From a virus: a stretch of DNA of 64,000 nucleotides. Shown one piece after another: positions 47,561 to 64,000 of the stretch. The notes under the pieces are model-generated. The model ran no database searches. It saw only the letters and a program-made list of their open reading frames with translations, and had not been told where the DNA came from. The DNA lies in the IMG/VR virus record IMGVR_UViG_3300045988_124250; one strand, 5' to 3'. The first letter of the stretch is position 1. Each line of letters starts with the position of its first letter. The translations under genes and the position numbers were made by a program.

Positions 47561-47600
47561 GCCGAGAATTAAGTTTTATTTAATTCTCGGCTATTTTTTA
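47561..47600. terminator. Bidirectional rho-independent terminator (gccgagaattaa / ttaattctcggc)
   Basis: 12-bp inverted repeat flanked by T/A runs, placed between convergent transcription units. Confidence 0.7.
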
Positions 47601-48092
47601 TTCTTTATAATTAGATAAGCTATTTCTAAATTTCTATTCTACCATTTGGAATAGTTTATCTCCAGTGTGGTTCCCACCCATTTTATTATAGGTTTCATGG
47701 TCACTCTCAATTTCTTCAAACTCATCGAGAGTAATTTCATGGTCTGGTTTTAATAATTTACGACAATCATCTTTAAATTGTTTACCCTAAATAGATAAAA
47801 CGCCACCACTCACAACATCTATTTTACCATTTATATTATAAATTTCTTGTTTTAAACTATCGGTTTCTTGTTTAGATAAATCTCGCTCGGTTTGCAATAA
47901 ACTAGCTGTGGTTTTATGCTCATCACTAATTTTGCTTTTTAATTCTTTAATAATTTTTTCATGAGCTTCATCTTCTAAACGCTATTTTTCTTTTTTATAT
48001 AAATTATAAAAATATTTAGCTAAACCCGTAAGTCCTAATGCGATTATACCAAATAAAAACTCAAGCCAATATTTGGCGATAAAATCAAGCAT
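47598..48092 (-). CDS. Membrane-anchored coiled-coil protein (164 codons, 3 TAGs)
   Basis: RBS AAAGGAG plus ATG at 48092. N-terminal TM helix MLDFIAKYWLEFLFGIIALGL, then a coiled coil. All in-frame stops are TAG until TAA at 47598-47600. Confidence 0.5.
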
Positions 48093-48170
48093 TTAAAAAA
48101 CTCCTTTCCGTAAGAATCTCTATCCATTTGTTCTTACAAATAAGGAGTTATTTTTTTTTGTATTTTGGCC

Positions 48171-48680
48171 TCATTCCCAATTATACTCTTCTTGAGGTTT
48201 AGTGAAATATGCAGTATACAAACATATAGCATCGCATACATCATCATTAGCCACTATACCATATTTATTTTTTACAAACTCAATATCTGCTTGTTTAAGA
48301 GCAACTCGTTTTACTTTTGGGCCGAGCTTCATTCCAAGTAATTTTCGCCATGATGATGAATTCATAAATTCAATAAAATCATAATCAATGTTAGTATCAA
48401 CACTATGAGCACCTAGGGCCACAGACCCTTGAAGCCACATCAAAACACGTTCAGTATGAGACTTGTTTCCATATGCTTCTGGATGCACATCTTCTGCAAC
48501 TATTTTACCAATATTATTTTCTTTTATTAAATCTACAATTTTATCAGTCATTTGTTTAATACGTTCAAGAGTATTATCTCCTGAAATAGGAATTAATCCC
48601 CATTTGAGCATTTCCCCTTTTTCAGAAGATAAACACCATCCAGTAGATTTAGATGATAAATCTAAAAATAATATATTCAT
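48171..48680 (-). CDS. RuvC-like Holliday junction resolvase (169 aa, TAG-free)
   Basis: RuvC-fold motifs ILFLDLSSKSTGW and DDVCDAICL. Confidence 0.7.
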   Translation of the reverse strand: MNILFLDLSSKSTGWCLSSEKGEMLKWGLIPISGDNTLERIKQMTDKIVDLIKENNIGKIVAEDVHPEAYGNKSHTERVLMWLQGSVALGAHSVDTNIDYDFIEFMNSSSWRKLLGMKLGPKVKRVALKQADIEFVKNKYGIVANDDVCDAICLYTAYFTKPQEEYNWE

Positions 48681-49237
48681 TAAGTTAGACTAGCTTGATT
48701 AGCTTCTGGACTACTTGTAGTAGAACCAAACCCACCAAGCCGCTGACCAAAAGCATTATCATCATCTGTTGTTAGATAAGGTTTAATAATGCCTTGGCCA
48801 ATCTTATCTCCCTTTTTAAGTTGAATATCAAATGTAGTAAGATTAATTACTTGAAAATAAATATGTCCTTCATTATCAGGATTATTATAATAATCAGCAT
48901 CAATAATTCCTACTCCATTAGCAAGAATAATCCAATGCTTTAGTGGGGTGGAGCTACGCACTGATAATTCAAGATATGTATCAGCATCAAGACAGCATTT
49001 AATTCCAGTGGGAACAAGAGTAGGTTTTATTTTTAATTCTTTAGTAAAACTAGCCATTTCGGTTAGAGTATAAATATGGCCTGTTCTACCCCATCGAACC
49101 ATTTCACTCATTTGGTTAGAATAAGATGGAATTATAATATCTTCAACCACAGTAAAATCATATCCTGCGGAATTAACTGTACTACGAGTGGGAATTACTG
49201 CATCAGGGTATTTAGAAACTCTTTCAAATTTAATCAT
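48680..49237 (-). CDS. dut: dUTP diphosphatase (185 aa, TAG-free)
   Basis: dUTPase motifs AGYDF, GIIDADYYN and RLGGFGSTT. Confidence 0.85.
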   Translation of the reverse strand: MIKFERVSKYPDAVIPTRSTVNSAGYDFTVVEDIIIPSYSNQMSEMVRWGRTGHIYTLTEMASFTKELKIKPTLVPTGIKCCLDADTYLELSVRSSTPLKHWIILANGVGIIDADYYNNPDNEGHIYFQVINLTTFDIQLKKGDKIGQGIIKPYLTTDDDNAFGQRLGGFGSTTSSPEANQASLT

Positions 49238-49488
49238 TAGAAATCAATTTGCTCCCCATATTTAATATTAACAACAGAAATAGGGTCTTTTTCATCATTA
49301 AATTTCTTAGTTAATGAAACTTGATACCATTCATCAATGATTTCGCCCTTCTGTTTCTTTTCCTTTTTTACAGAACTATACTTAGCCAGTTCATACATAT
49401 TATCATGCTTAGCTTTCTCAATTAAAGAAGTGGCACTGGCTTCATTATCAACTCTATATACTTCAGTTGTACTTACTAGGTATTCCAT
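49237..49488 (-). CDS. Hypothetical protein (83 aa, TAG-free)
   Basis: The start MEYLVST with RBS GGAGAAG is preferred over the upstream ATG of ORF 49237-49506. Confidence 0.4.
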   Translation of the reverse strand: MEYLVSTTEVYRVDNEASATSLIEKAKHDNMYELAKYSSVKKEKKQKGEIIDEWYQVSLTKKFNDEKDPISVVNIKYGEQIDF

Positions 49489-49766
49489 TATTTTTCTTCT
49501 CCACAATCAATAGTTAGATTTAAATTTTCATATGCATAATTAGTTTTACAAAATTCCATCATTCTTTGTTTCATTTCAAATGTGTAATCAGTAATACCTA
49601 ACAAATGAATTACATTAATATTATTATTTTTGCAATAGGATGGAATGGCTTCAACCATATCATCGAAGGTACAACTAAATGTATCTACGATATTGCCATT
49701 ATTATCTACTGCATAAATTTGTTGAACCATATCAAATGGCTGTAAACTACAAAACAAACGATTCAC
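49488..49766 (-). CDS. Hypothetical protein (92 aa, TAG-free)
   Basis: Intact ORF with a GTG start and RBS GGTGG. Confidence 0.4.
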   Translation of the reverse strand: MNRLFCSLQPFDMVQQIYAVDNNGNIVDTFSCTFDDMVEAIPSYCKNNNINVIHLLGITDYTFEMKQRMMEFCKTNYAYENLNLTIDCGEEK

Positions 49767-50308
49767 GAAAAATCCACCACCCCTGCATCATATCCAAATA
49801 AATAGAACATATAAATATTATCACTGATAGACATCCAAATTTCAATGGCGCCCTGTTCTTCATTCCAGTCTAATGTTTTAATCTTACCAACATCAGCTAG
49901 GCAATCTAATATAGATTTACCAAATGAATCAGCAATAATTGTTGGTTCATAATGAAATACAGTATAATAATTATAATCTCTACATAACATAAGATAATAA
50001 TTATTATTCATCTTTCGATGATAACTATTAATTTTTTGTTGATAATCTCCTAATGTATCTGTATCGGGGTCTGGTAATGAACGTACTAGAGATTTATTCA
50101 AATCATATAAATTTAAGTTTAAGTTAGCTTTAGTATCATCAACTTTATCAATAGTACCATAATTTGATACTTCTTCCCATTTACCATCCATATAACAATA
50201 TACTTTTTTATCTTCAGTATATGCTACTGCACCATTTTCAAATACTTGAGGAGAATATTTTAATTCATCAATGGTTTTTACACCAATACATTTTAATCCA
50301 TTAGTCAT
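49763..50308 (-). CDS. Hypothetical protein (181 aa, TAG-free)
   Basis: Intact ORF with RBS GGAGGG and a TGA stop. Confidence 0.5.
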   Translation of the reverse strand: MTNGLKCIGVKTIDELKYSPQVFENGAVAYTEDKKVYCYMDGKWEEVSNYGTIDKVDDTKANLNLNLYDLNKSLVRSLPDPDTDTLGDYQQKINSYHRKMNNNYYLMLCRDYNYYTVFHYEPTIIADSFGKSILDCLADVGKIKTLDWNEEQGAIEIWMSISDNIYMFYLFGYDAGVVDFS

Positions 50309-50335
50309 TTATTACCCTCCATTTTCTATATTATA

Positions 50336-50830
50336 TCACATTTTTTCCCATAAGTCAAATGGAGCGTAATAAACTTTTTGATTGTGTGAGCCACGCATAG
50401 GTAAGGTAATATCTCGTTGTTCAATCTTAAATGGACCGTCAATAATACAATCAATATTATCAACAATATTTTTTAGATGTGGCTCTCTGCACATAGCCAA
50501 TTCATCCATTGTATATCCAGTCCATAAAAAAATTTTTGTTTTAGGAAGAGCTTCTTTAATATGTTCAATAATTAAATCTACAAGGAATAGATTTTCTGGC
50601 GCAAGGGGCTCTCCTCCCATAATACAAAAATCACGATGTATACCATTAGCAGTAAGAGCATTTACTATATCATCTAATGTATTAGTAGTAAATTCTTTTC
50701 CGCCATTAAAATCCCAAGTTTCTGGATTCTAACAACCCTCGCAATGTCTGGCGCATCCTTGAGTGAAAAATGAGACACACACTCCAGGAGCTCCAGCAAT
50801 ATCATTTTTAATTATACCAGCGTATCTCAT
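50336..50830 (-). CDS. nrdG: Anaerobic ribonucleotide reductase activating protein (164 codons, 1 in-frame TAG directly after the radical-SAM Cys motif)
   Basis: Motif GCARHCEGC-TAG-NPETW, with the TAG codon at 50729-50731. ORF 50336-50620 is the C-terminal part. The start overlaps the nrdD stop as ATGA. Confidence 0.75.
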
Positions 50831-53097
50831 TCCATCACTCCTACATGTTTGACTCGATGTTCAACTTCATCTTGCTTTCCTAAATTAAATGCAGTTTTAT
50901 AATTACCAGTTAAATAACCAGTTACACGACGAAGTTGCTGGATTTCTTTACTACCGCATTCTGGACATTTATCATTAAATTCGCCAGTATATCCGCACTT
51001 TAGACAAGTATCATTAGGAACATTTACAGCAAAATAAGGAATATCTTTATCCATAGCATAATTTACAATTTGCTCAAGAGCAGTTAAGTTATTAGATACA
51101 GTAGAATCTAACTCAACATAAGTAATACAACCGGCATTACTATATCCAGTTAATTGACTCTCAATATCAATTTTATCAAATGGGCTCATTTCTTTCCATA
51201 CAGGAACATGAATTGAATTAGTAAAAAATTCTTTATCACTTACATTAGGAATTTCGCCGTATTTAGCTTTAAATTTCTTCATTGCGGTATAACAGAGATT
51301 TTCCGCGGGAGTATAATAAACACCAAAGTTTAATTTATACTGTTCTTTAAATTCCGCACAACGCTGTTTAAATAAGGATTCAATTTTTTTTGCTAATTCC
51401 ATTCCTTCTGGAGTTGTATGGTCAGTACCAATAAGAATTTGTAGAGTTTCTGCCAGTCCTAACTAACCTAAAGCTAATGTTCCATGTTTAAGGGCACTTC
51501 TAATTCCTTCTTCTGGAATATAACCAGCCATTAGGCTATTTTCATACATAAACTTAGCAGAAGCAGGGCTTTGAGAACAAATCCAGTCAAAACGTTCAAT
51601 TAATTGATCCTTAGCCTCAGCAATTTTTTCATCAAGCAAATTCATAAATACTCTAATGCATTCATTAATTTTTACTTCATTATCTTCATCCAATACCTTA
51701 AAACTAAGAAGATTATTTACTCTAGTTTTTGCAATCATCGCCAAGGTAGGCATAATGATGGTTACTGGGCAAATATTTCCACGGCCATCTTTCAACTAAC
51801 CGAAACCGTTAATATCGTATCCATTGGCAGTTCGGCATCCCATTGTACTAAAATAGGTACGTGGGTCATTGATATCATATCCAGCATTCCCGGACCAATC
51901 AACATTCGCGTAGTTGGGGTATAATCTTTTGGCGGTGGATTGTAATGCGAGTTTAAACAAATCATAATTTGGGTCACCTGGTTCACGATTGACACCTTTC
52001 ATACATTGGAAAATCCCGCAAGGGAAAATAGAAGTTTTATGTAGCTTACCCAATCCCTCAAGAGATACTTCTAATAGAGCTTTTGTAATCATTCTTCCTT
52101 CTGGGAGAGTACAAGTTCCATAGTTAATAGAAGTAAATGGAAGTTGATTACCACTACGACTTTGAAGAGTATTTAAATTATGATACATACCTTCAACTGC
52201 TTGATGAATTTCTTTTTCTGTCTATTTTAGAGCATAATTATAAGCATTTTGATGACCAAATTGACTTTGTAATTCTTTATTAGAAATTTCAATAGGTTCA
52301 CAATCCTTCATAATTTGTAGAGCCATACCTTCACTGTAATCATCAACATCAGTTAAATATGCTTTAAAATGTTTTCTAAAACTCTTTTTAACATAAGGAA
52401 CCATAGTCCAATCAAGATGAGTAGCACTTACTCCACCAAACTATTGAAGAGATTGTAATTGGAAAATAACAGCAACCAATTGGAATGCTGTATTTACTGA
52501 ACCTGCTGGACGCACATCTGTTTGACGAGTATTAAATCCATTAGCAAGCAAATCATCAAATGGAATTGATAAACAGTTATGGTCGCCCACAGCATAATGG
52601 TCAAGGTCATGAGTATAAATCATATTCTCTTCATGATTACGCTTTGTCCGAGGGGAAACAATATAATCAAGAGCATATTGCTTCATTAAGAGACTATTGG
52701 CCTCGCCCATGCGTCCACCAAATGATGCTTCATCAACATTAGCATTTTGATTCTAAATATTAGCACCACGAATTTTTTCACCAATTGCCGTAATAAATTC
52801 AGTTGAATGAGTACGAGCGACTTCTTTTTTATATCTGTAACGAATATAAGCACGAGCAATATCAGGACGCTCTGATGTCATTAATACTTCTTCAATCCAA
52901 TTTTGAATATCTTCAACATTAACACTTCCATCAGGGAAATGGCTAGCTCTATATTCTACTTCATCAGCGATGCTATTAATACTATCTGATTCAAAAATAT
53001 TTTCATCGACAGCGATAAATGCTTTAGTAATAGCATCAATAATCTTTTGTTTGTTAAATGGCATTACATCGCCATTACGTTTAATTATATAAAACAT
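50827..53097 (-). CDS. nrdD: Anaerobic ribonucleoside-triphosphate reductase (about 756 codons, 5 in-frame TAGs)
   Basis: N-terminal ATP-cone and a C-terminal glycyl-radical motif RRVTGYLTG. ORF pieces 52753, 52441, 52222, 51796, 51463 and 50827 share one frame. Every junction stop is TAG: cta at 52753, 52441, 52222, 51796 and 51463. Confidence 0.8.
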
Positions 53098-53169: not shown

Positions 53170-53766
53170 TTAATAAGTTGTGTCCAGATGCTCCGGCCAC
53201 CGAGACAGGAACAATGCTAAATCTTTATATATATATTCTAATTCCGCAGGAGTATTATTTACATATAACCAATTACATAAATCATCAGCATCTTCAAAAT
53301 CGAGTTTATCTGTTTTATATCGACGAATAATTTCATCAATATCCGGGTTAGCCTCTCGATTTAACTATCTAATTAATCGAATCTTATCATCTGCGTGGAT
53401 ATAAACGATAATTAAATTTACTCGTTTATCATGTAATAGAATCTCTGCGCCTTCTGGATTAAATACTCCTACATTGATAGCGCCCTCTTTGACTGATTCA
53501 ATTCCTGTGCCATAGCACCATTCATTAAAAACAGTAGCTTCAAACATTTGATTCTATAAAATCATTTCAGCAAATTTTTCTGCTGAAATAAAATGGTAGT
53601 TAATACCATCCACTTCTTTTTCTCTTGGAGGTCTTGAAGTATAACTTATAATTTCATGTAGAGGTAATTTACCATTATAATAATGCTTTGTATCATCAAT
53701 TAGTTTACGGAGAATGGTATCCTTACCACTCCCCGCTTCACCAATTAATGCTAATATATTATACAT
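53170..53766 (-). CDS. Guanylate-kinase-like nucleoside monophosphate kinase (about 198 codons, 2 TAGs)
   Basis: P-loop GEAGSGKDT and a GMP-kinase-like FISAEKFAEMI...YGT block. Junction stops at 53554 and 53365 are both TAG. Ends at TAA 53170-53172. Confidence 0.65.
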
Positions 53767-56700: not shown

Positions 56701-57737
56701 ATAACAGGATATTTTTCATACCAATCTTTTGGAATAAATCCCTTTTTATAGTCTAATACTTCTACTCTTGGAATTTGTTGTTTGCGCTCAAGAGAATAGA
56801 ATTTTATTTTCTTTTGAATTTCTAATGTATTATCAAAAATCCAATTCATAATTTCTTGAGGAGTTTTATTTTTATCCCAAGTATCCATATATGGTAGCAT
56901 TAATTCTTCTACTTCATCGCTATTCATTACATAAGCAAATTCATAGAATGAATCAACTTCACGCTCGCCATCTTTAGAATTTAAATAGGCTTTATGAATT
57001 GGTCTATCTTTCTTTGTTAAATAATGAGCGTCAGTTCCAACTACCATTTTTAAATCATATGCTTTTGCTACTTGATAAATTTTTTGATTTACTACAAGTT
57101 GGTCTTTCATGGTAGACGGAGCGCACTCTAAATAAAAATCATCTTTACCAAAAACATTTATACAAAATTCAATAAATTTAACAATATTATTATAATAAAT
57201 GCTTTTAGTTTGTGTATCGCCTACAACTTCGGCTTCATACATTGGATACAAATTAGAACCTAATTCACCACCAATACAAGCTGTTGTTGCGATTACATGC
57301 CCTTTATATTGTACCATTACATTTTTCAATTCAGATTTTAATGTTGGCACTCGTTCCATTTTTCTATCAATATAAGAATTAATCCAAGCAATTGAACTTA
57401 ATTCTTTTAATGCTTTATATCCAATTTCATCTTTTGCCAATAAAATAAAATGATAATACTTTTGACCGCAATCTCTTGTATCAGTCAAATAAATTTCATT
57501 GCCTAATGCGATAGTAAAATCAGGATGCTCTTTTAAAAAATCTTTTGCAAATTGATTAACTTCCATATGAGCAGATAAACATTCGTGATCAGTAATTGCT
57601 ATACCACTTAATCCTAATTTTTCTGCTGTTTTAATCAACTCTTCTGGTCTATTAATAGAATCTAATAAACGCAGATTTGAATAGTGAGTATGGTTGTGTA
57701 CGCCAAAATATGGTCGCATAATCCACCTCTTTCTCAT
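53766..57737 (-). CDS. dnaE: DNA polymerase III alpha subunit, DnaE-type with N-terminal PHP domain (1323 aa, no TAG)
   Basis: Uninterrupted 1323-aa ORF. PHP motif GVHNHTHYS...ITDHE, a polymerase core and a C-terminal OB fold. RBS AGAGGTGGA. Confidence 0.85.
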   Translation of the reverse strand: MRKRWIMRPYFGVHNHTHYSNLRLLDSINRPEELIKTAEKLGLSGIAITDHECLSAHMEVNQFAKDFLKEHPDFTIALGNEIYLTDTRDCGQKYYHFILLAKDEIGYKALKELSSIAWINSYIDRKMERVPTLKSELKNVMVQYKGHVIATTACIGGELGSNLYPMYEAEVVGDTQTKSIYYNNIVKFIEFCINVFGKDDFYLECAPSTMKDQLVVNQKIYQVAKAYDLKMVVGTDAHYLTKKDRPIHKAYLNSKDGEREVDSFYEFAYVMNSDEVEELMLPYMDTWDKNKTPQEIMNWIFDNTLEIQKKIKFYSLERKQQIPRVEVLDYKKGFIPKDWYEKYPVICSLINSDDIQERYWINECIKALQEKQLYENETYIARLETEANVIKNIGEKLEDCLFAYFNTFKHYIDLFWECGSIVGPGRGSATGFLSNYLLGITQLDPIRWGLPYWRFLNLERAELPDIDIDLAPSKRPAIFSAIRKERGTLGLIQVATFGTEGTKQAILTACRGYRSDDYPNGIDVDEAQFMSSLIPQERGFLWPMKDVVNGNPDKDRKPVTTFIQKVNQYPGLLDIIVYIEGIVNKRSSHASGVILYGEDPFETASFMKTPSGDLITCWDLHKAEAAGDTKYDFLVTEACDKIIQCYNLLKEDNQIPDIGLRDFYNKYLHPEVIDTSDKRIWEHLAAGDILDVFQFSTGVGLAIAKKLKPKDPMEMTAANAMMRLMSEKGKESQQDRYYRIQKAGIEVFDKEMKDNHLPEEMIEKMHKHCDRYYGCCPLQEQMMEILMDVAGFTLGEANSARKVVAKKQMAKIPQLKEQVFSKFTNEHNAEYFWENAIAPQLGYAFSLNHSLPYSFVAIQMIYLAINFNPIYWNCACLIVNSGALENEPEEMSDEDYDYSGEEYCGVSPEDVMENKPKNKKVASTDYGKIAKAIGDIQSAGIKVSLADINKAKFGFAPDVENNQILFGLKGLLNVGDDLINNIIANRPYISVKDFYYRIKPSKQAMISLIKSGAFDEMMDRKDLMIWYIWETCDKKSRLTLQNLATLIRYNLLPEDKDEYVMARRVYEFNRYLKAVCKDGNVYKVDERAINFLTEIGCDDLIGSCCLLDSKAWDKVYQKYMDTFRAWITENKDVILNKLNNKIFKDDWDKYASKSISAWEMEVLCFYYHEHELAHVNNSKYGFVDFFHLPEEPIVDKVFSKGNKTITMYKLHKICGTCIAKNKTKSTVTLLTTSGVVEVKFRKEYFSLFDKQISEKQADGTKKVMEKSWFNRGNMIAVQGIRQGDNFIAKKYASSGGHQLYKIDKILDNGDIELKDERYNGGAN

Positions 57738-57781
57738 TTATTTTATTTATAATAATATTATATCAAATAATTTATTATAAA

Positions 57782-58387
57782 TCAATCATCTACGGTAAAT
57801 GTTGTATTATAAATCCGATTTAACATATCAATCCAACAATTATATAAAGGTCTATACCGAGGCGGCACCCACGGCGGAGAGAGACAAATAATTATAATAT
57901 CATAATCTTCCATTGTTAAATCAAAATTTTCAATGCTATCTTGTCTGGTTAAATAATTATTTTTATCCAGATGACACTAAATAGAATTATCATTATGAAT
58001 CCAATTATATTGACTAACCGCATAACCATGTTCATAAGCATATTTTACCCAATTACCACAATTCAATTCATCTTCTGGTTCAACTTCATTATATTGAATA
58101 TCATGATGATGGTCTATATTAGTTATTTCAATAAGATCATTTAATGGGAGATATTTAATTACTCGATGATGTGAAGTTATAAAATGCACATTTTCTTTTT
58201 TAATATGTTTTGTTTGTCGAAGAATCATTTGAGTCAAACGATTATATAATTCCCCATCAAATTGTGTATAATTTAGTAAATCAAAATTAGCTATTAGAGT
58301 TTTCCAATCCTATTGTACTAAATTATTATATAACGGTAATGATTCCCACATTAATATATCAAAATCAATAGTTAATACTTTTGTCAT
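57782..58387 (-). CDS. Hypothetical protein (about 201 codons, 2 TAGs)
   Basis: ATGA overlap with the upstream helicase stop. ORF 57977-58237 is internal to it. Ends at TGA 57782-57784. Confidence 0.45.
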
Positions 58388-59580
58388 TTTCTAATTAATA
58401 CCAACCTCTCTTTAGCTCTTGTGGCTAAGGTATAGAGATATTTTTTATGAGTTTCTCTATCATAAGGCGGAGCCTCTTCAAACCCTAATACTTTATTATA
58501 TTCACTACCTTGAGCTTTCCAGCAAGTAATGGCATAGGCATATGAAAAATCAAATGGAGGGTCAGGGCAATTTTTATTCTTTTTAATTTGATAAATTTGT
58601 TTTCCTTCAAATGTTTTTTTACCAGTTAACAGTTGGTTATAATCAATAGGAACTCCACAAAATGTATCATCATCGTCAAGTCTTAATTGAGCATACATAA
58701 ATGGTACAGGGTTTTTATAAATCCAATAGGGAAACCGTATATCTTCAACGTAGAAATCTTCTAATGTCCCAATGGTCCCATTAGTTAATGCCCATGTATG
58801 ACTAGAAGACATAAACTCCCATTGATTATGTAGTCCGATTAATTTATCTCCAAGGCAAGGTCTATCAGGATCATATCCTTTTTGAGTTCGAACTATACGA
58901 TTAATATCATTTCGTTTTTCATTTGTTGAGCAAATAATTTGGTCTGCCCAATTATACATCTAAGGCAGCATTTCATCCCATTTAAACCGAATTAAAACTT
59001 GTTCTTCAGTACCTTTATAGGAAGAAATTGGTTTGTTATCACGAATCCACATTGAGAATCTAATAATTTCACTATCTTGCGCTTGACGCATAATTTCATC
59101 AAGGAAAACGTGGGGATTGTCGAGAACATGATTATTATCTTCATCGACTATTGGTGGTAATTGGCCGGGGTCGCCGGTTGCCAAAATATAAATACCATGA
59201 GATAGAAGTAATTCCCACATGGCTTTAGGAAGCATTGAAACTTCATCTACTACAATTACTTTGTATTGTACTATTTCCTCTCTTGGTCTTGGAAAAAATT
59301 TATATGTTCCATTAGGTGTAATCCGCGCTTTATATAATAACTAATGAGCAGTAGTCGCATTCGGACAACCTTTAGTCTAGAGAACTGTAGCCGCTTTACC
59401 AGTAAATGCTACATAACAAACTTCTTCTTCTGGATTTACTCCCAAGGCAGAAATAATAAATTTAATTAAAGTTGATTTACCACTTCCAGCATAACCTGCT
59501 ATTACTGTATATCGTTCTTTATTTTTATATCGTTCTACTGCTATTTTTAATCCTTGTTCTTGTTTATTTGTTAAAATCAT
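58384..59580 (-). CDS. Dda/RecD-like SF1 DNA helicase (about 398 codons, 3 TAGs)
   Basis: Walker A AGYAGSGKST, Walker B VIVVDEVSML, ILATGDPGQLPPI and ITCWKAQGSEY. ORF pieces 59377, 58960 and 58384 share one frame and are joined by TAG at 59377, 59341 and 58960. Confidence 0.75.
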
Positions 59581-59608
59581 TTATATCACCATTTTGGTAT
59601 AAAAATTT

Positions 59609-59812
59609 TTAAATCACTTTTTCATTTTGGATTTCGGTTCTCAGAGCCATAAACGACTGAGCGAAATCTTCTGGCGTTGTAAGGAATGTCTCTGCGAAAA
59701 TTTTACTAATTTCAAATACTTCATTGTATATCTCATTATCAGATTTTTCTGTATTATATAGTAAATTATGTAAGTCTTGAGCAATATCCCAAGCTGATTT
59801 AAATTCTGTCAT
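59609..59812 (-). CDS. Small hypothetical protein (67 aa, TAG-free)
   Basis: Start MTEFKSAWD with RBS GGAGATAAT, internal to ORF 59609-59896. Confidence 0.4.
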   Translation of the reverse strand: MTEFKSAWDIAQDLHNLLYNTEKSDNEIYNEVFEISKIFAETFLTTPEDFAQSFMALRTEIQNEKVI

Positions 59813-59876
59813 ATTATCTCCATAAATGAAAATAAGGGTTATATGGAGAAATACCTCTCCATATAACCATATATAA

Positions 59877-60707
59877 TTAAGATGCAAAATATTCAAAAGC
59901 GATTAAAGCATTTGATTGTCTCACATCATAAGAACCTGATCCACAGCGCTCATAACATTTAGCAAATGCTAATGCAATTTCTTCAATATCAGTCATTTCA
60001 ATAAAATCATCATAATCAAATCCTGATTTATATTCACTACCAAATGAATTAAATTCATTTTCAATAGTTTCAACTAAATATTGACATTGTTCAGATAAAT
60101 CCATACCTTTAGTATTACTATATTTTAAGCTCCATTGGCATATGCCATAATATCCTGGATGGGTATTGGTAGTATGCTCAATATCTAAAGTATGCCCACC
60201 AACCTCAGCCATTATATTACCAAGGATACCGGCACATATTTCATCGCTATATCCTTGATCGCTTAAATATAACCAAATACTAGAAGCAGTTGGGTATTTC
60301 TCAATTCGAATTTCCCAACGTTTTTGTTCTAACCGATTTTCATAAATTGTAATCAATTTATTTAATTGTTCAATTTCAGCAGTCGTTGTTTTAACTACTG
60401 GATGTTTATCGGTATATCCTAAATTATCAGCCAATACTAGCATTTGTTCAGCGGATTCTTTTAATGTTTTACACTCTTGGATTAGTGTTCTTAATTCTTG
60501 TGTATCTTCTGTTTTAGATATATTTCTAATTTGTTTATACTCAATCGTAGTAGTAAGATCTACCACAGAAGACATTTCAGAAGGGATGTAAGCTTCCGAA
60601 AGTGCATTTCGAGTAATAACTGATGCTTCAACAGTTTTAATGCTGCATCCAATAATTAGTACACAGCTTAATGCAATCAGCCATTTATTCAAAATAGTAT
60701 TTTTCAT
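59877..60707 (-). CDS. Lipoprotein (276 aa, TAG-free) with a lysozyme/transglycosylase-like C-terminal domain
   Basis: Signal peptide with lipobox LIIGC|S and RBS AGGAGG. C-terminal motif GILGNIMAEVGG...GYYGICQWS. Confidence 0.6.
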   Translation of the reverse strand: MKNTILNKWLIALSCVLIIGCSIKTVEASVITRNALSEAYIPSEMSSVVDLTTTIEYKQIRNISKTEDTQELRTLIQECKTLKESAEQMLVLADNLGYTDKHPVVKTTTAEIEQLNKLITIYENRLEQKRWEIRIEKYPTASSIWLYLSDQGYSDEICAGILGNIMAEVGGHTLDIEHTTNTHPGYYGICQWSLKYSNTKGMDLSEQCQYLVETIENEFNSFGSEYKSGFDYDDFIEMTDIEEIALAFAKCYERCGSGSYDVRQSNALIAFEYFAS

Positions 60708-60760: not shown

Positions 60761-62506
60761 TTAAAAATAATAATTTGCCCTATCTACAATTTCGTAATCT
60801 TTAATCATAACTTGAGGACTAATTTTATTATTCCAAATATTTCGTTCGCATTCACCAACGATATTAATTGTCACATAACCTAATTCAGAATATAGTTTAT
60901 CATATTCCTCTTCAGACGACCTAAACTTCATAAAATTGATGCCGTTAGGCAACATTATCTTTAGAGTAGGATTTTTATCTGGCGATAGAATACGTATATT
61001 GTCTTTATGGACTTTAATACCTTCTACTGCAATTTCAGCTTCTTCTACTCCTTGGCCCCATAAGCTTTTCATTCCTGCGATATCAATAACTTCATCAGGA
61101 GTCAGCTCATCTGATTTGTAGATAAAATCTACATTATAGATTGGGGTGAAATCAAAACCGTCTAGAGCAGAATTTGTAGATGCAATAAATGCGCTAATAT
61201 CTTCATCTTTAATACCAACACCAAATGCATTTGCATGGCCTTCGGCGTACATAACATATTTATTATTTTCTAAAAATCCTCTAAAATCTTTCAATCGAGA
61301 TTTGTCGTATCCTCTACCAGACCCTTCCCAAGTTATTGTACCATCTTCATTTTCAATTCTATTTAAGATTAAAACAGGTCTTTGATATTCACTCATTAAT
61401 TGATTTGCTATTAATCCAGTTAGGTTGCGGTCAGTAATCAAATCATCTAATTGAACGATTAAGATTTTATTACTCAATAAGTTTTGATTTACGATTATCT
61501 ATTCAATTTTTTCCAAGCTATTGTCTCGAATTTTGGTTTGCCTACTTTTAATATTGGTACAATTTCGACAAGCTTGTTCTACTCTCGTCTCTGCTTGACC
61601 TTTACATCCACGTTTCGTTGATGGGACAAGTTCGTATCCCCGAAAATCAAGCATTGATTCGAATAGCATGAGCTTTTCTTCTTGCGTTCCGACGCGAGTT
61701 GTCGCGTTAATTAATGGAGCAATATAAAAAGCTACTCCAATAGGTGTAATCTCATTTGTAAAATGAAATTGGTCTTTATCAATCGCACCTCTGAAGTAAG
61801 GATTGCGGATTTGTTGAAGTCCTTTATCTATTAATCTTCTTGTTTCAAAATCTCGCACATCCATCATGTCGGCCACCAATCCAAGAGCTACTAAATCTAA
61901 AAACTTCTACGCATGGTTAGTTTTTAATAACATATCAATGTAGCAACAAAATTTCCAGACCATCGCTACACCAGATAATGATTTAGTAGGATAATCACAT
62001 AACTAATTATTAATTACACAAGCATATTTAGAAATGTGATCAGCTTCATGGTGGTCTATTACCAGCACGTCAACTCCACTTAGATTTAAATATTCATGAG
62101 CTTCATAATCATTTGAACTTGAATCTGGAGCGATTACTAATTTAACATCTTCTGGAATTGTATCTGGAATGATACCGTGCTGTTTTCCCATATGGACACG
62201 ATAAGAAATGTTATTATTCACAAAACTGGGAAATAGACAATATAGATAATTCATAAGTAATGCGGCAGAAGTATATCCATCACAATCACTATCTACCTAT
62301 ATCAGAACTTTGTCATTTTGTGAAATATGTTTAATAAGCATTTTAGCACCTTCATCCAAGTGCGGTATTAACCGAGGGTCTAAAATGTCATTATCAGTAG
62401 TGTTTAAATAATGATTAATCTAATCGTAGGGTATTCCACGATTTACTAGCACTTGTTCTACCGGTGTATATATCGGGAACTCGGGTGCTCTTAGGCGGTA
62501 TTCCAT
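60761..62506 (-). CDS. RecJ-like DHH/DHHA1 single-strand DNA exonuclease (about 581 codons, 4 TAGs)
   Basis: DHH motif I VDSDCDGYTSAALL, motif III VLVIDHHEA, and DHHA1 AEGHANAFG. ORF pieces 62003, 61499 and 60761 share one frame and are linked by TAG. RBS AAAGGAGGG plus ATG at 62506. Confidence 0.7.
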
Positions 62507-62577
62507 AGAATAGTCACCCTCCTTTCATTAAACCACTACCCATATATTTTAATTTTTTTATTAAATTTATTATTTAT

Positions 62578-62890
62578 ATCAGTCCTTCTCTGGATAATAA
62601 TATTCAAACCCATGATATGGAAAACAAGTAGTACAAGGTTTAATAATAGTATCGACAATATCATCAGCAATTTCACGGTCAATATAAGAAATATTACACC
62701 TGTATCCTCGGCTATTAGTATTACCTCGTAGAGCTCGCCAATTATCTCCATTTTCATAAGTAATTGTATATTCAGTTTTAGTTTTAACTATTTGGACAGG
62801 ATTAATATGAAGCTATTCATATTTTGTCGCTATTCGATCTAATTGTTTTACTGCTGAAATCCAACGATTACCCCAAACGATACCATTCAT
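62578..62890 (-). CDS. Hypothetical protein (about 104 codons, 1 TAG)
   Basis: Protein-like composition (MNGIVWGNRWISAVKQLDRIATKYE...CTTCFPYHGFEYYYPEKD) in a frame different from the Ile/Leu-only ORF 62536-62757. Confidence 0.35.
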
Positions 62891-63045
62891 ATTGTGTTCC
62901 TTTCTTTATTATTTTTCCACAATTGGGACACTTATCATATTCTTCTTTAAAACTTTTATAACATAATGGACATTGATATCTTATATCTGGGAATGGGTCT
63001 AAATCTGCGGCTGCATTATATTTATTCCAATGTAATTCGCTCATT
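62868..63045 (-). CDS. Small zinc-ribbon protein (58 aa; CPLC...CPNC)
   Basis: MSELHWNKYNAAADLDPFPDIRYQCPLCYKSFKEEYDKCPNCGK. The start overlaps the primase stop. Confidence 0.45.
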
Positions 63046-64000
63046 ATATTATAATCCTTTCTTTAAATAATTTCAAGAAAATATCTTTTCCATCATCAAT
63101 TGGTGAATCTTTATATCCAAGTAATCCGGTTTTATCAAACATAAATGATATTGTGGCATAATTTTTAAATTTACTTCTTGCTTTTAATAAATTTAATTTA
63201 AGATGTTTAAATTCATCATCACCAAGCTCTTTAAATTGTCTATCAAATGCAATAATAATTTCTTCAACTCCACAATCTAATAATAACTGAACTTGATGGC
63301 TGGATAAATTACTGCCACAACACGCAACAGATATATCATTATTAAGACCAAAATAAGTTTTATATTTTAAAACAGATTTTTCTCCTTCAAATACTATTGC
63401 TTTTTTAAATGTTTTTATAGCATTTTTACTTAAATTTAAATTATATAAATTCATACCAAGAGGATGGCTATACCATTGATTATTTAAATGAATGGGTCGA
63501 TATTTCCCATATAATTCACATTCTTCTTTACATAATGACCGCCCACGTAAACCAATAAATCGCCCATCAATATCATAATGTGGAATTGTTATTTGGTCGC
63601 CTCCTGGATAAAAACCAATTTTAGCAGCATTTAATGCTTCTTGTGAGATACCTTCATCTAACCAAGGTGTTAATTGAACTTTATAATTAAATCTTGTTAA
63701 AATTTTTTCATCATAAGTTTTTAGTGTTATTTGATTAGTTTTCTTCTCAATACTTTGAATACGACTATATTCATTAAAAATTTTCCAATCTTCAAGAGTT
63801 TTGGCTTCATCTAATTCTTGAATTGTTCCGCCTAAACCAAAACGATGAGCTACCCATAAAACTGCTGAGTTTAAATCAAATTCTCGCTCATGTTGAATAC
63901 GCATTACTTTCGTGCATAATTCAAATATATCAAACGTAGCATCGCATCCGGTATAACATTTAAACAATCCAGTATTTTCATAATAGTAGAGTTTTTTACT
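63044..64000 (-). CDS. dnaG: DnaG-like DNA primase (5' partial at the window edge, TAG-free)
   Basis: TOPRIM motifs VFEGEKSVL and DCGVEEIIIAFDRQ. Part of the zinc-binding N-terminus lies beyond position 64000. Confidence 0.65.
   Translation of the reverse strand, partial: SKKLYYYENTGLFKCYTGCDATFDIFELCTKVMRIQHEREFDLNSAVLWVAHRFGLGGTIQELDEAKTLEDWKIFNEYSRIQSIEKKTNQITLKTYDEKILTRFNYKVQLTPWLDEGISQEALNAAKIGFYPGGDQITIPHYDIDGRFIGLRGRSLCKEECELYGKYRPIHLNNQWYSHPLGMNLYNLNLSKNAIKTFKKAIVFEGEKSVLKYKTYFGLNNDISVACCGSNLSSHQVQLLLDCGVEEIIIAFDRQFKELGDDEFKHLKLNLLKARSKFKNYATISFMFDKTGLLGYKDSPIDDGKDIFLKLFKERIII

What the first reader, a model, noticed from the sequence alone, without database searches (positions are those of the whole stretch)
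47598..64000. Two gene classes: TAG-free replication-initiation genes versus TAG-dependent genes
Several genes have zero TAG: Pol III alpha (1323 codons), primase (more than 307), RuvC-like (169), dUTPase (185), the lipoprotein (276), three small ORFs at 49237-50308, the genes at 44272-45018, gene 45863-46543 and the structural-module gene 35470-37404 (644 codons). Neighbouring genes need 2-5 suppressions each: nrdD, nrdG, the kinase, the helicase, RecJ, 57782-58387 and 47598-48092. At the roughly 1-2% TAG codon frequency seen elsewhere, a TAG-free 1323-codon gene is wildly improbable by chance. This suggests a translational code switch used as a timing gate: the polymerase, primase and host-interaction genes are translatable under the host's standard code, and everything else only after a suppressor is active. 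Alternatively the TAG-free genes were acquired recently.
Basis: partly seen in the sequence, partly recalled or inferred. Interest (0 to 1): 0.85.

Follow-up and report, generated by a model that had tools for sequence, protein, structure and literature searches.

The report
Uneven amber-codon use in recoded phage
This gut phage reads the stop codon TAG as glutamine yet keeps it out of its core DNA-replication genes while loading it into accessory and tail genes; the pattern is real and conserved, and it is a new example of a code-switch strategy already proposed for other phages.

Summary
The window comes from a roughly 197-kb phage that reads TAG as glutamine: coding density is 0.51 under the standard code and 0.95 with TAG as sense.

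The statistics were overstated. At the replication module's own TAG rate (0.55% of codons), only DnaE is individually significant (P about 7e-4). Each small TAG-free ORF has P(0) of 0.15-0.73.

Relatives supply the power. In 19-27 recoded genomes, TAG per Gln codon is 4/1122 in DnaE, 2/262 in the primase and 0/209 in a lysozyme-lipoprotein. RecJ, NrdG and 47598 run at 22-32%. The RuvC-like gene, listed as TAG-free, reaches 36% in sister clades.

Two-class models beat one-class models, by delta-BIC 6 here and 47 in the related complete phage phAss-1.

TAG-free replication genes sit behind conserved host-type promoters. A phage tRNA(CUA) with the same promoter type lies about 48 kb upstream in a near-identical genome.

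TAG-free is not the same as early, however. Four candidate major virion proteins (identity inferred from gene order and size) are also TAG-free. Recent acquisition is rejected.

Verdict: a real pattern, consistent with the published code-switch model (Borges et al.), and a new member of a known kind.

The parts
53766..57719 (-). DnaE-type DNA polymerase III alpha (homolog of SPbeta YorL), 0 TAG among 44 Gln codons. The start is revised from 57737 to the ATG at 57719.
   Evidence: Pfam PHP, DNA_pol3_alpha, finger and HHH_6 domains. 40% identity to SPbeta YorL. The AGAGGTGG Shine-Dalgarno sequence and the alignment of relatives support 57719; the upstream ATG is ATA in relative L018. TAG/Gln is 4/1122 across 24 recoded genomes, all singletons.
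57757..57785 (-). Sigma-A-type promoter with extended -10 (TTGATT-17-TGATATAAT) directly upstream of DnaE
   Evidence: The -35, TG and -10 elements are conserved in the clades aligned, down to 47% protein identity, while the flanks diverge; clade B has a TATTAT -10 variant and L018 lacks the TG (alignment A1).
63044..64000 (-). Toprim DNA primase, cut by the window end (367 aa in relatives), 0 TAG
   Evidence: PHROG 47 DNA primase. Full length in L018:3591-4694, Toprim domain. TAG/Gln 2/262 in recoded relatives. DnaB-like helicase and an AAA_24 ATPase just upstream in relatives are also TAG-free.
62868..63044 (-). Small Cys-rich (CxxC...CxxC) ORF, 0 TAG
   Evidence: Too short to test (2 Gln codons).
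62579..62890 (-). Small ORF, 1 TAG. Preferred over the overlapping low-complexity ORF 62491-62820.
   Evidence: The same ORF is present in L018 and L010 at 4848-5159.
60761..62506 (-). RecJ-like ssDNA exonuclease, 5 TAG of 21 Gln-type codons
   Evidence: PHROG 2484, E 4e-154. 5-9 TAGs in clades A, B and E (TAG/Gln 0.22), with two TAG columns shared by clades A and B. 4/22 in phAss-1.
59877..60707 (-). Lipoprotein (signal peptide and lipobox ...IIGC) with a phage tail lysozyme domain, 0 TAG
   Evidence: Pfam PF18013. 0/209 Gln codons as TAG in 19 recoded genomes, although only 45% identical between clades.
59837..59868 (-). Terminator-like hairpin (14-bp stem) just after the lipoprotein gene
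   Evidence: A consensus scan only.
59609..59812 (-). Small ORF, 0 TAG
   Evidence: Not testable (3 Gln codons).
58384..59580 (-). SF1 (RecD/Pif1-like) helicase, 3 TAG
   Evidence: Pfam AAA_30 and UvrD_C_2. TAG/Gln 0.09 across relatives.
57782..58387 (-). ORF of unknown function, 2 TAG; its start overlaps the helicase stop by 4 nt
   Evidence: no family match.
53170..53766 (-). Guanylate-kinase-like protein, 2 TAG of 3 Gln-type codons; its start abuts the DnaE stop
   Evidence: Pfam PF00625.
50827..53097 (-). NrdD anaerobic ribonucleotide reductase, 5 TAG. Three are absent from all five 97-99% relatives, and two more are each present in only one or two of them.
   Evidence: Pfam NRDD, ATP-cone and Gly_radical. 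Relatives have CAG or CAA at the same columns.
50336..50830 (-). NrdG activase, 1 TAG (at the same column in all five close relatives)
   Evidence: Pfam Fer4_12 and Radical_SAM.
50330..50358 (-). Second extended -10 promoter (TTGACT-17-TGATATAAT), upstream of the TAG-free run 49763-48171
   Evidence: Present in clades A and B, in L016, L017, L036, L037 and L044.
48171..50308 (-). Run of five TAG-free genes: 49763-50308, 49488-49730, 49237-49488, dUTPase 48680-49237, and RuvC-like/DUF3882 48171-48680
   Evidence: Across relatives: 49763 3/154 and dUTPase 5/116, but RuvC-like 71/197 (0.36), so its TAG-free state is specific to the window's clade.
47598..48092 (-). Last gene of the strand: N-terminal hydrophobic segment, 3 TAG of 8 Gln-type codons
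   Evidence: TAG/Gln 0.32 across relatives.
47560..47592 (.). Strong hairpin (15-bp stem) between the convergent late and early gene blocks; terminator-like
12..24128 (+). Tape-measure protein and tail/baseplate genes. 147 TAG, which is 40% of Gln-type codons and 1.85% of all codons; homogeneous across its 6 genes.
   Evidence: G test p = 0.64; PHROG tape measure and tail protein.
24240..44183 (+). Further tail/fibre-like genes with lower, heterogeneous TAG use (TAG/Gln 0.19). Includes the TAG-free 35470-37404 (0 of 18).
   Evidence: At this block's own rate P(0) for 35470-37404 is about 0.02. Only one relative has an ortholog, so conservation cannot be tested.

Best explanation
The window is about one third of a roughly 197-kb tailed phage. 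Its promoter and ribosome-binding signals look Firmicutes-like, its replication module resembles that of SPbeta (YorL-type DnaE), and its virion module is related to phage phAss-1. It decodes TAG as glutamine using its own tRNA(CUA).

TAG load is set gene by gene:
- Essentially zero in the core replisome and topology genes (DnaE, DnaB, primase, AAA_24 ATPase, topoisomerase subunits). These sit immediately behind strong host-type sigma-A promoters.
- 7-36% of Gln codons in accessory DNA-metabolism genes (NrdD/G, SF1 helicase, Gmk-like, RecJ, and RuvC-like in sister clades), in a membrane protein and in intron or free-standing endonuclease genes.
- About 40-60% in probably low-copy virion parts (tape measure, baseplate, connectors, portal).
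- Zero again in four candidate high-copy virion proteins.

Proposed mechanism. The suppressor tRNA is transcribed by host RNA polymerase from the same promoter class as the early genes. Suppression efficiency s therefore rises gradually in competition with release factor 1. The full-length yield of a gene with n TAGs scales roughly as s to the power n.
- Genes with n = 0 are translatable at once (replisome) or at full yield (major virion proteins).
- Genes with n = 1-5 are delayed or attenuated.
- Genes with n = 17-63 need near-complete suppression.

Shown: the recoding, TAG = Gln, the gene-specific and conserved TAG loads, the conserved promoters, and the tRNA(CUA) gene. Inferred: the time course, competition with RF1, the s^n relation, the copy numbers and identities of the virion proteins, and the host.
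For: - Recoding and TAG = Gln.
- Gene-specific TAG load over 19-27 recoded genomes, with DnaE TAGs arising only as unfixed singletons at CAA/CAG columns.
- Not explained by protein divergence or by GC and codon usage.
- In conserved-Gln columns DnaE shows 15 CAA/CAG polymorphic columns but only 3 TAG columns, against 21 and 19 in the other genes (Fisher p = 0.04).
- Upstream replisome genes are TAG-free.
- Mixture models. Clustering and the promoter-distance gradient.
- Conserved promoters before DnaE and the 49763 block. None found within 200 nt upstream of RecJ, SF1 helicase, NrdD or 47598 in clades A-D, apart from one non-extended match in L009 before RecJ.
- 7 promoters on the early strand, 1 on the opposite strand and none in the late block of a 96.5-kb composite.
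- Independent replication in phAss-1, including two tRNA-Sup genes inside a replication operon behind TAG-free TopoB and TopoA.
- tRNA(CUA) with a consensus TTGACA-17-TATAAT promoter in a genome 97% identical in DnaE.
- Late-gene split across 34 recoded loci.
- TAG-rich endonuclease ORFs beside TAG-free replication genes.
- The published model and partial proteomic support.
Against: - No expression data exist; timing is wholly inferred.
- The suppressor shares its promoter class with the TAG-free genes, so there is no evidence for a discrete switch.
- TAG-free status of the replisome is not absolute: DnaB has 2 TAGs in every clade-B genome sampled and 9 in L082/L083, and the primase has 1-3 in several lineages. 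Replication can therefore tolerate dependence on suppression.
- TAG codons are not significantly concentrated at the 5' ends of genes.
- The +4 context signal is weak (p = 0.02 against a NAG control) and absent in phAss-1.
- Within this window alone the evidence rests largely on DnaE.
- The identities of the four TAG-free late proteins as major capsid, scaffold and tail tube are inferred from order, size and conservation. Only one has a 'virion structural protein' label.
- The relatives are phylogenetically non-independent and many come from one metagenome collection.
- The suppressor was found in a near-identical relative, not in the window itself.
Confidence: 0.6

Rival explanations
1. Pure translational-efficiency selection with no temporal role. 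TAG is simply the slowest or least reliable Gln codon, because the suppressor tRNA is limiting or RF1 competes. It is purged from genes whose full-length yield matters most and drifts upward elsewhere.
For: Four late genes, candidate abundant virion proteins, are as TAG-free as DnaE, while probably low-copy virion parts are 30-58% TAG. The suppressor has the same promoter class as the early genes. TAG shows no 5' bias within genes. DnaB and primase tolerate TAG in some lineages.
Against: Replisome proteins are not expected to be needed in larger amounts than NrdD or dUTPase-type enzymes, yet they are the cleanest class. TAG-free genes are promoter-proximal and clustered. Potentially harmful products such as the membrane protein, the endonucleases, the resolvase-like gene in sister clades and the lysis-like pair are preferentially TAG-loaded inside otherwise TAG-free regions. 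That pattern fits delayed expression better than low demand.
Confidence: 0.25
2. Toxic-truncation avoidance. TAG is excluded from genes whose prematurely terminated products would be dominant-negative, such as fragments of polymerase, helicase, primase or capsid that poison assemblies. Timing and abundance play no part.
For: The TAG-free set is enriched for subunits of multimeric machines or lattices: replisome, topoisomerase, candidate capsid, candidate tail tube. DnaE TAGs arise but never spread.
Against: The portal, tape-measure and baseplate proteins also assemble into multimers and are heavily TAG-loaded. The fast-evolving lipoprotein and ORF 49763 are TAG-free without any obvious assembly role.
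Confidence: 0.08
3. Chance combined with gene length and composition. The TAG-free genes are merely the zero tail of one homogeneous TAG rate.
For: Each small TAG-free ORF is compatible with chance (P(0) 0.15-0.73). The window's replication module without DnaE is only marginally heterogeneous (p = 0.09).
Against: DnaE P(0) = 7e-4. Mixture models prefer two or more classes. Runs test P = 3e-4. The same genes are TAG-free in 19-34 recoded genomes and in phAss-1. GC and codon usage barely differ between the classes.
Confidence: 0.03
4. Recent horizontal acquisition of the TAG-free genes from standard-code phages or hosts.
For: Standard-code sister lineages with the same gene order exist (clade D), so donors are available. 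The tail gene 35470-37404 has an ortholog in only one relative, and tail-fibre genes are commonly exchanged between phages (general knowledge), so acquisition cannot be excluded for that one gene.
Against: DnaE, primase, DnaB and AAA_24 are syntenic in all clades down to 39-47% identity, and their divergence parallels that of neighbouring TAG-bearing genes (DnaE 76.5%, RecJ 74.7%, NrdD 72.8% between clades A and B). GC is 0.31 against 0.32 in neighbours, and codon usage is nearly the same.
Confidence: 0.03

Closest known systems
Partially recoded (code 15, TAG to Gln) gut phages with standard-code early genes: the code-switch model of Borges et al. 2021/2022, building on earlier reports cited there (crAss-like and Lak phages; refs 17-21 of that paper) and supported by Peters et al. 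2022
   Same: - TAG read as Gln.
- Low GC, with TAG almost unused as a stop in standard-code relatives.
- Structural and lysis-like genes heavily recoded.
- Replication genes mostly compatible with the standard code, with 'variable' use of the alternative code in the replication machinery.
- A phage suppressor tRNA.
- Closely related standard-code and recoded lineages.
- A homing-endonuclease ORF inside an early gene that is preferentially recoded.
(Searches compared.)
   Different: This is a different phage lineage, with a DnaE/YorL-type polymerase and about 197 kb. TAG has spread into accessory replication genes while the core replisome stays clean. The candidate major virion proteins are TAG-free, so late genes are themselves split into two classes. 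The suppressor lies in a tRNA array behind the same host-type promoter class as the early genes. I did not see these points stated in the passages of those papers that I read, and I did not read them exhaustively.
Phage phAss-1 and the proposed Phassvirus group (Int J Mol Sci 2023, PMC10607447; GenBank OQ749652)
   Same: - Same overall layout: a late block on one strand, and a long early/replication strand with Pol III alpha, NrdD/G, RecJ, topoisomerase, AAA_24 and primase.
- TAG = Gln, with tRNA-Sup(CTA) genes and a large tRNA array.
- The paper states that TerL and the tape measure contain TAG, while listing MCP and Pol III alpha without it.
- My census shows the same ranking: DnaE 0/59, primase 0/16, capsid candidate 0/15, RecJ 4/22, membrane protein 8/24, tape measure 110/249.
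- The same stereotyped promoter type.

   Different: Only 25-50% protein identity (DnaE 39%). GC is 44.5% against 30%. The genome is 136 kb against about 197 kb. In phAss-1, NrdD and the SF1-like helicase are TAG-free, and two suppressor tRNAs sit inside the replication module next to nrdD. Here the one suppressor found lies about 48 kb upstream of DnaE. The paper did not analyse TAG classes or promoters.
SPbeta-like Bacillus phages and Enterococcus phages EF1/EF5/VRE9 (standard code)
   Same: YorL-type DnaE at 39-40% identity over its full length. Shared virion proteins at about 40% identity. DnaE interrupted by homing-endonuclease insertions in EF5, as in several relatives here.
   Different: According to the phAss-1 paper, no stop-codon recoding was found in EF1. 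These phages serve as outgroups rather than analogues of the finding.

Membership tests
Stop-codon-recoded phage, TAG to Gln (genetic code 15), with partial recoding | Coding density rises markedly when TAG is read as sense | tested here: met
   0.51 under code 11 against 0.95 with TAG as sense. ORFs of 2338-2716 codons carry 14-49 in-frame TAGs.
Stop-codon-recoded phage, TAG to Gln (genetic code 15), with partial recoding | In-frame TAG aligns with glutamine in homologs | tested here: met
   At the window's TAG columns, TAG-less clades carry Gln codons in 90 of 248 cells, by far the commonest residue. Four of five NrdD TAG columns are CAA/CAG in nearly all clades, and all four DnaE TAGs in relatives lie in columns where other genomes carry CAA or CAG, three of them Gln-majority.
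Stop-codon-recoded phage, TAG to Gln (genetic code 15), with partial recoding | Phage-encoded suppressor tRNA with anticodon CUA | tested here: met
   Absent from the window. Present at L315:2982-3055 in contig ULOZ01046417.1. That contig is 100% identical over 2 kb to the IMG/VR genome whose DnaE is 97% identical to the window's. So the feature is met for the clade but not shown for the window's own molecule.
Stop-codon-recoded phage, TAG to Gln (genetic code 15), with partial recoding | Host uses the standard code, so a switch is required | not testable with these tools
   The host is unknown. Consensus sigma-A promoters, strong AGGAGG-type ribosome-binding sites and relatives infecting Bacillus, Enterococcus and Enterocloster suggest a Firmicutes host.
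Stop-codon-recoded phage, TAG to Gln (genetic code 15), with partial recoding | Early genes compatible with the standard code, late structural and lysis genes recoded | tested here: inconclusive
   The trend holds: TAG/Gln is 0.08-0.12 on the early strand and 0.28-0.33 in late blocks. But 22 of 58 early-strand genes carry TAG, and four late genes are TAG-free. The temporal classes are inferred from promoters and gene functions only.
Stop-codon-recoded phage, TAG to Gln (genetic code 15), with partial recoding | Temporal separation of TAG-free and TAG-containing gene expression | not testable with these tools
   Needs time-resolved transcriptomics, Ribo-seq or proteomics in the unknown host.
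Phassvirus (phAss-1 genus) and its wider monophyletic group | Genus-level nucleotide similarity and synteny with phAss-1 (members share 80-86% nucleotide identity) | tested here: not met
   No blastn hit to phAss-1 was listed for DnaE. Proteins are 25-50% identical and GC is 30% against 44.5%.
Phassvirus (phAss-1 genus) and its wider monophyletic group | Monophyly of signature proteins (TerL, MCP, tape measure, Pol III alpha) with the group | not tested
   No phylogeny was built, and TerL is not in the sequence held. Shared layout and best hits of two virion proteins to phAss-1 (50-55% identity) make membership of the wider group plausible.
SPbeta-like phages | YorL-type DnaE replication polymerase | tested here: met
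   40% identity over 99% of its length to SPbeta YorL.
SPbeta-like phages | Other SPbeta hallmarks (temperate lifestyle, YonO RNA polymerase, genome-wide similarity) | not tested
   None was searched for. DNA similarity is limited to short stretches.

The most novel reading that the evidence does not exclude
The number of TAG codons in a gene may work as a built-in exponent that sets both when and how much protein is made, with yield roughly equal to suppression efficiency raised to the number of TAGs.

On this reading one suppressor tRNA, made from an ordinary host-type promoter, would program three tiers:
- Immediate, full-yield genes: the replisome and the major virion proteins.
- Delayed or attenuated genes: accessory DNA metabolism, endonucleases and a membrane protein.
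- Strongly gated, low-copy genes: tape measure, baseplate and connectors.

The same gene-by-gene ranking recurs in lineages separated by standard-code relatives. That would mean it was reached convergently and is maintained by selection, making it a dosage and timing rheostat rather than a simple early/late switch.
Probability: 0.3. Interest if true: 0.6.

Novelty: new member of a known kind. Interest (0 to 1): 0.35.

Why it matters
Stop-codon recoding in phages is thought to act as a translational timer, but the evidence so far is mostly the contrast between early and late gene modules.

This lineage offers a finer and testable picture. TAG has already entered the replication module, yet it is kept out of the core replisome in dozens of genomes. 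The late module is itself split into TAG-free and TAG-rich genes. Standard-code, incipient and fully recoded relatives with the same gene order are all available.

That makes it a good system for three purposes:
- separating timing from dosage as explanations for recoding;
- ordering the steps by which a stop codon invades a genome;
- correct annotation, since under the standard code half of this window would be miscalled.

It does not change the current paradigm.

Tried and rejected
- **Suppressor tRNA in or near the window.** ARAGORN on the window and 236 related loci (4.3 Mb) found none (the positive control worked). Rfam over 130 kb also found nothing. The tRNA was reached only after walking about 40 kb upstream and running one anchored metagenome scan.
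- **Tail-protein query for distant late modules.** It returned only 3 loci. A conserved TAG-free virion protein worked instead.
- **Slow evolution as the cause of TAG-free genes.** Rejected: there is no correlation with divergence.
- **GC or codon-usage difference.** Small: p = 0.02-0.06 between the classes, against 1e-31 between the tail and replication modules.
- **5' enrichment of TAG within genes.** Not significant.
- **+4 nucleotide context of sense TAG.** The apparent A enrichment shrinks to p = 0.02 with a NAG-codon control and is absent in phAss-1. Left as inconclusive.
- **Generic promoter scan.** No more sites than in shuffled sequence, 98 against 115. Only the stricter extended -10 pattern combined with conservation was informative.
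- **Identity of the four TAG-free late proteins.** Pfam, PDB-sequence and PHROG searches gave only 'virion structural protein' for one of them.
- **GenBank annotation of phAss-1.** It is fragmented at TAG, so I re-called its ORFs myself.
- **A search pattern for suppressor tRNAs.** Judged too unspecific, because the three phAss-1 suppressors differ greatly from one another.

Full report
**1. What the window is**

The 64-kb window has 30% GC and no tRNA gene. Read with the standard code it is 51% coding. Read with TAG as a sense codon it is 95% coding, with ORFs of up to 2716 codons carrying 14-49 in-frame TAGs.

At the window's TAG positions, relatives that lack TAG mostly carry CAA or CAG. 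Four of the five NrdD TAG columns are Gln in nearly every clade. So TAG = Gln (genetic code 15).

The + strand from 12 to 44183 encodes a tape-measure protein and tail or baseplate proteins. The - strand from 47598 to the window end encodes a replication and nucleotide-metabolism module:
- Toprim primase
- RecJ-like exonuclease
- a lipoprotein with a phage-lysozyme domain
- SF1 helicase
- DnaE-type Pol III alpha
- a guanylate-kinase-like protein
- NrdD and NrdG
- dUTPase
- a RuvC-like/DUF3882 protein

. The DnaE is 40% identical over its full length to YorL of Bacillus phage SPbeta.

**2. Checking the observation**

The statistical claim used the wrong background. The 1-2% TAG frequency is that of the tail block 12-24128, where TAG is 1.85% of codons and 40% of Gln-type codons. 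The replication module runs at 0.41% of codons, or 0.55% with DnaE excluded. At that local rate:

| Gene(s) | P(0 TAG) |
|---|---|
| DnaE | 7e-4 (Poisson), 9e-4 (per Gln codon) |
| Each small TAG-free ORF | 0.15-0.73 |
| 35470-37404 | 0.057 at the replication rate, about 0.02 at its own block's rate |

Without DnaE the module is only marginally heterogeneous (p = 0.09). From the window alone, then, the 'two classes' rest mainly on one gene.

**3. Comparative census**

A search with DnaE returned 46 related IMG/VR loci at 47-99% identity, many from contigs of 160-197 kb. Counting TAG in orthologs gives gene-specific loads over 19-27 recoded genomes:

| Gene | TAG / Gln-type codons |
|---|---|
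| DnaE | 4/1122 |
| primase | 2/262 |
| lysozyme-lipoprotein | 0/209 |
| ORF 49763 | 3/154 |
| dUTPase | 5/116 |
| NrdD | 0.07 |
| SF1 helicase | 0.09 |
| Gmk-like | 0.11 |
| ORF 57782 | 0.14 |
| RecJ | 0.22 |
| NrdG | 0.24 |
| ORF 47598 | 0.32 |
| RuvC-like | 0.36 |

The four DnaE TAGs are each unique to one genome. All four lie in columns where other genomes carry CAA or CAG, and in three of them Gln is the majority residue. Such mutations therefore arise but do not spread, whereas 33 TAG columns are fixed in a clade in the other genes (Fisher p = 0.0017).

TAG load does not track protein divergence (Spearman rho -0.25, p = 0.38). RecJ and DnaE are equally conserved between clades (75-77%) yet differ about 50-fold in TAG use, while two fast-evolving genes are TAG-free. 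In conserved-Gln columns, DnaE shows ordinary CAA/CAG turnover (15 columns) but only 3 TAG columns, against 21 and 19 in the other genes (p = 0.04).

GC and synonymous codon usage barely differ between the classes (p = 0.02-0.06, against 1e-31 between the tail and replication modules). Together with conserved synteny, this rejects recent acquisition.

**4. Beyond the window**

I walked along the contigs of 97-100% identical relatives.

The genes just upstream of the primase are TAG-free:
- a DnaB-like helicase (510 aa)
- an AAA_24 ATPase (336 aa)
- a 312-aa protein
- topoisomerase B, plus topoisomerase A with a single TAG at codon 3 of the ORF as called

Several genes in this region do carry TAG:
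- A membrane protein embedded among them (L061:6577-7545) carries 3-9 TAGs in most recoded lineages.
- A lysis-like pair further upstream carries 3 and 2 TAGs. Its function is inferred from the sequences only: a 612-aa peptidase-like ORF and a 123-aa membrane ORF.
- In L010, a 231-aa Cys-rich ORF with 6 TAGs is inserted between DnaB and the primase.

The rule is not absolute. DnaB has 2 TAGs in every clade-B genome sampled and 9 in L082/L083, and the primase has 1-3 in several lineages.

On a composite of about 105 kb (window plus flanks; junction verified), binomial mixtures gave these results:

| Gene set | Best model | TAG/Gln per class | BIC |
|---|---|---|---|
| 58 early-strand genes | two classes | 0.008, 0.157 | 132.3 vs 138.1 for one class |
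| all 87 genes | three classes | 0.009, 0.147, 0.389 | 283.8 vs 290.3 (two) and 387.3 (one) |

TAG-free and TAG-bearing genes form runs along the strand (16 against 28.3 expected, P = 0.0003).

**5. Promoters**

Upstream of DnaE lies TTGATT-17-TGATATAAT (57785-57757). The -35, extended TG and -10 elements are conserved in the clades aligned, down to 47% protein identity, while the flanks diverge. Clade B has a TATTAT variant of the -10 and one close relative (L018) lacks the TG. The alignment also moves the DnaE start to the ATG at 57719, behind an AGAGGTGG ribosome-binding site.

The strict pattern occurs only three times in the window (0.75 expected). The second site on the gene strand, 50358-50330, precedes the run of five TAG-free genes 49763-48171.

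In the relatives' flanks the same A/T-tract promoter precedes a nucleotidyltransferase gene, TopoB, a small ORF, the s119a-p312-AAA_24 group and the s119b-DnaB-primase group. Within 200 nt upstream of RecJ, the SF1 helicase, NrdD or 47598, no such promoter is found in clades A-D, apart from one non-extended match in L009 before RecJ.

Seven sites lie on the early strand of the 96.5-kb composite, one on the opposite strand and none in the late block. TAG/Gln rises from 0.04 for genes starting within 1 kb of a promoter to 0.10-0.15 further away. The first cistron after each of the seven promoters is TAG-free (0 of 81 Gln codons; 0 of 37 without DnaE, P about 0.03; my arithmetic). This points to transcription by host RNA polymerase, with TAG-free genes promoter-proximal.

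**6. Late genes are also split**

Upstream of the tape measure, in close relatives, four ORFs are TAG-free: 311, 368, 195 and 359 aa (0 of 37 Gln codons). The portal-like, connector and tape-measure genes around them use TAG for 15-60% of Gln codons. At the late-block rate of about 0.33, P(0 of 37) is about 4e-7 (my arithmetic).

Across 34 recoded late-region loci from many lineages, these four run at 0.010-0.028 and all their neighbours at 0.12-0.58.

One of the four matches a PHROG 'virion structural protein'. The 368-aa protein is the most conserved of the module. Their assignment as scaffold, major capsid and tail tube is inferred from order and size only.

**7. Evolutionary context**

Clade D (55-60% DnaE identity, same gene order) uses the standard code. 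Its tape-measure gene has 163-186 Gln codons and no TAG, TAG ends a gene where clade A has a gene boundary, and coding density is equal under both codes.

Nineteen of 54 late-region loci are standard-code. One locus, L262, is incipiently recoded (4.9%), with TAG mainly in the ortholog of the 242-aa gene that is the most TAG-rich everywhere.

Within the window's own clade, three of NrdD's five TAGs are absent from all five 97-99% relatives, and two more are each present in only one or two of them. TAG load is therefore still changing.

**8. Independent replication in a complete genome**

Two virion proteins hit phage phAss-1 (OQ749652, 136 kb) at 50-55% identity. Its paper reports TAG = Gln, 36 tRNAs including three tRNA-Sup(CTA), and TAG in TerL and the tape measure, while listing MCP and Pol III alpha without it.

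My re-annotation gives TAG per Gln-type codons as follows:

| TAG-free in phAss-1 | TAG-bearing in phAss-1 |
|---|---|
| DnaE 0/59 | RecJ 4/22 |
| primase 0/16 | membrane-protein ortholog 8/24 |
| AAA_24 0/17 | tape measure 110/249 |
| TopoA + TopoB 0/41 | connector orthologs 7/22 and 6/13 |
| capsid candidate 0/15 | |
| tube candidate 0/14 | |

On its early strand two classes (0.021 and 0.295) beat one by delta-BIC 47. Of 43 extended -10 promoter matches, 39 lie on the early strand and none inside the late block (4.4-46 kb). About 21 of them share a near-identical A/T-tract spacer.

One such promoter drives, in order: TopoB, TopoA, the TAG-rich membrane protein, tRNA-Leu, two tRNA-Sup genes, and NrdD.

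**9. The suppressor in the window's clade**

A last walking step reached the edge of a tRNA array. An exact anchor in the metagenome collection recovered contig ULOZ01046417.1 (197,566 bp). It is 100% identical over 2 kb to the IMG/VR genome whose DnaE is 97% identical to the window's.

That contig carries a 74-nt tRNA with anticodon CUA at L315:2982-3055. About 80 nt upstream lies a perfect TTGACA-17-TATAAT promoter with the same A/T-tract spacer (read).

The tRNA lies about 48 kb upstream of DnaE on the same strand, at a window-equivalent coordinate of about 106 kb, which is outside the window. It is shown for the clade, not for the window's own molecule.

**10. Interpretation**

The data fit the published code-switch model (Borges et al.; partial proteomic support in Peters et al.), with two refinements.
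- The suppressor shares its promoter class with the TAG-free early genes. Any gate is therefore probably kinetic, depending on tRNA accumulation against RF1, rather than a separate transcriptional stage.
- TAG avoidance in the candidate major virion proteins indicates that TAG also costs yield.

A simple reading is that full-length yield scales as suppression efficiency to the power of the number of TAGs. The 17-63 TAGs in the tail genes then imply near-complete suppression late in infection. These steps are inference.

Weak or negative results: TAG shows no 5' bias within genes, and the +4 context effect is weak and unreplicated.

The main rival is pure efficiency selection without a timing role. 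It cannot be excluded without expression data.

**11. Verdict**

- Observation: partly confirmed. It is real and more than chance for the core replisome, not demonstrable for the small ORFs, and wrong for the RuvC-like gene.
- Interpretation: partly supported, and already in the literature.
- Novelty: a new member of a known kind, with some fine-scale features that may be worth following up (the bimodal late module, promoter-proximal TAG-free cistrons, and the convergent gene ranking).

Noticed in passing
L030:12533-13763, L025:12428-13575, L027:11369-12505, L032:12149-13210, L037:11798-13038 (all inside DnaE orthologs): DnaE is interrupted at four or more different sites in relatives by insertions of 1.06-1.24 kb. 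Each encodes a free-standing GIY-YIG homing endonuclease, and in three cases the frame shifts between the flanking DnaE pieces, so these are intron-like rather than inteins. In the recoded relative L025 the endonuclease ORF has 5 TAGs while the DnaE exons have 0; in standard-code relatives it has 0-1. The window's own DnaE is uninterrupted.
   Followed up: partly
L010:2720-3415: A 231-aa Cys-rich ORF with 6 in-frame TAGs is inserted between the TAG-free DnaB and primase genes in one 98-99% relative and is absent from another (L018). It looks like a mobile endonuclease-type gene, but no family search was run.
   Followed up: no
L061:6577-7545 (ortholog in phAss-1, OQ749652:63005-63985): A 322-aa protein with an N-terminal transmembrane segment and a coiled-coil-like sequence sits among TAG-free replication genes. 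It carries 3-9 TAGs in most recoded lineages (0 in standard-code ones). In phAss-1 it lies immediately upstream of the two tRNA-Sup genes. Function unknown.
   Followed up: partly
L251, L250 and 17 other late-region loci; L262: The family contains fully standard-code lineages with the same gene order (tape measure with 163-186 Gln codons and no TAG, and TAG used as a true stop). It also contains one incipiently recoded genome, L262 (TAG/Gln 4.9%), where TAG is concentrated in the ortholog of the 242-aa gene that is the most TAG-rich everywhere. This forms a natural series for ordering the steps of recoding.
   Followed up: partly
window 50827-53097 (NrdD): Three of the window's five NrdD TAGs are absent from all five 97-99% identical relatives, which have CAG or CAA there; two more are each present in only one or two relatives. 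One change (codon 434, CAA to TAG) needs two substitutions. TAG load is changing on a very short timescale, or this gene segment has a different history.
   Followed up: no
OQ749652 (L291-L293): 55-126 kb and 127-135 kb, minus strand; window 57757-57785 and 50330-50358; L315:2872-2900: Two promoter classes are visible in phAss-1. About 21 copies are near-identical (TTGACwTAAAAAAATTTTTrTGnTATAAT). About 15 more, clustered at one genome end (127.7-135.4 kb), have GC-rich spacers and may be immediate-early. The window's clade uses the A/T-tract type, including in front of individual tRNAs of the array.
   Followed up: partly
window 45863-47023 (+ strand): Two small genes at the junction of the convergent blocks have GC of 0.40-0.41, against about 0.30 elsewhere. 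Both are Cys-rich, one has a hydrophobic Gly-rich segment, and neither matched a Pfam family. Their origin may differ from the rest of the window.
   Followed up: no
window, all genes: True stop codons (TAA or TGA) are followed by T in 24 of 36 genes. Sense TAG is followed by A in 44% of cases, against 34% after other NAG codons (p = 0.02). The effect is not seen in phAss-1. This could reflect selection on termination against readthrough context, but the evidence is weak.
   Followed up: partly
L315:2982-3055; L314:729-820: The clade's tRNA(CUA) has an apparent U1-U72 mismatch at the top of the acceptor stem and an encoded CCA end. A second contig carries a 92-nt CUA tRNA with a long variable arm, resembling one of the phAss-1 suppressors. 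The array's composition differs between 97-100% identical genomes (L294 against L297).
   Followed up: no
L309:16160-16514: A distant relative carries 22 tRNAs and a tmRNA-like gene in its array, according to ARAGORN.
   Followed up: no
L108:6206-8418: A probable lysis pair lies on the early strand upstream of the topoisomerase genes in the closest relative: a 612-aa peptidase/CHAP-like ORF with 3 TAGs and a 123-aa membrane ORF with 2 TAGs of 6 Gln-type codons. No family search was run on either.
   Followed up: no
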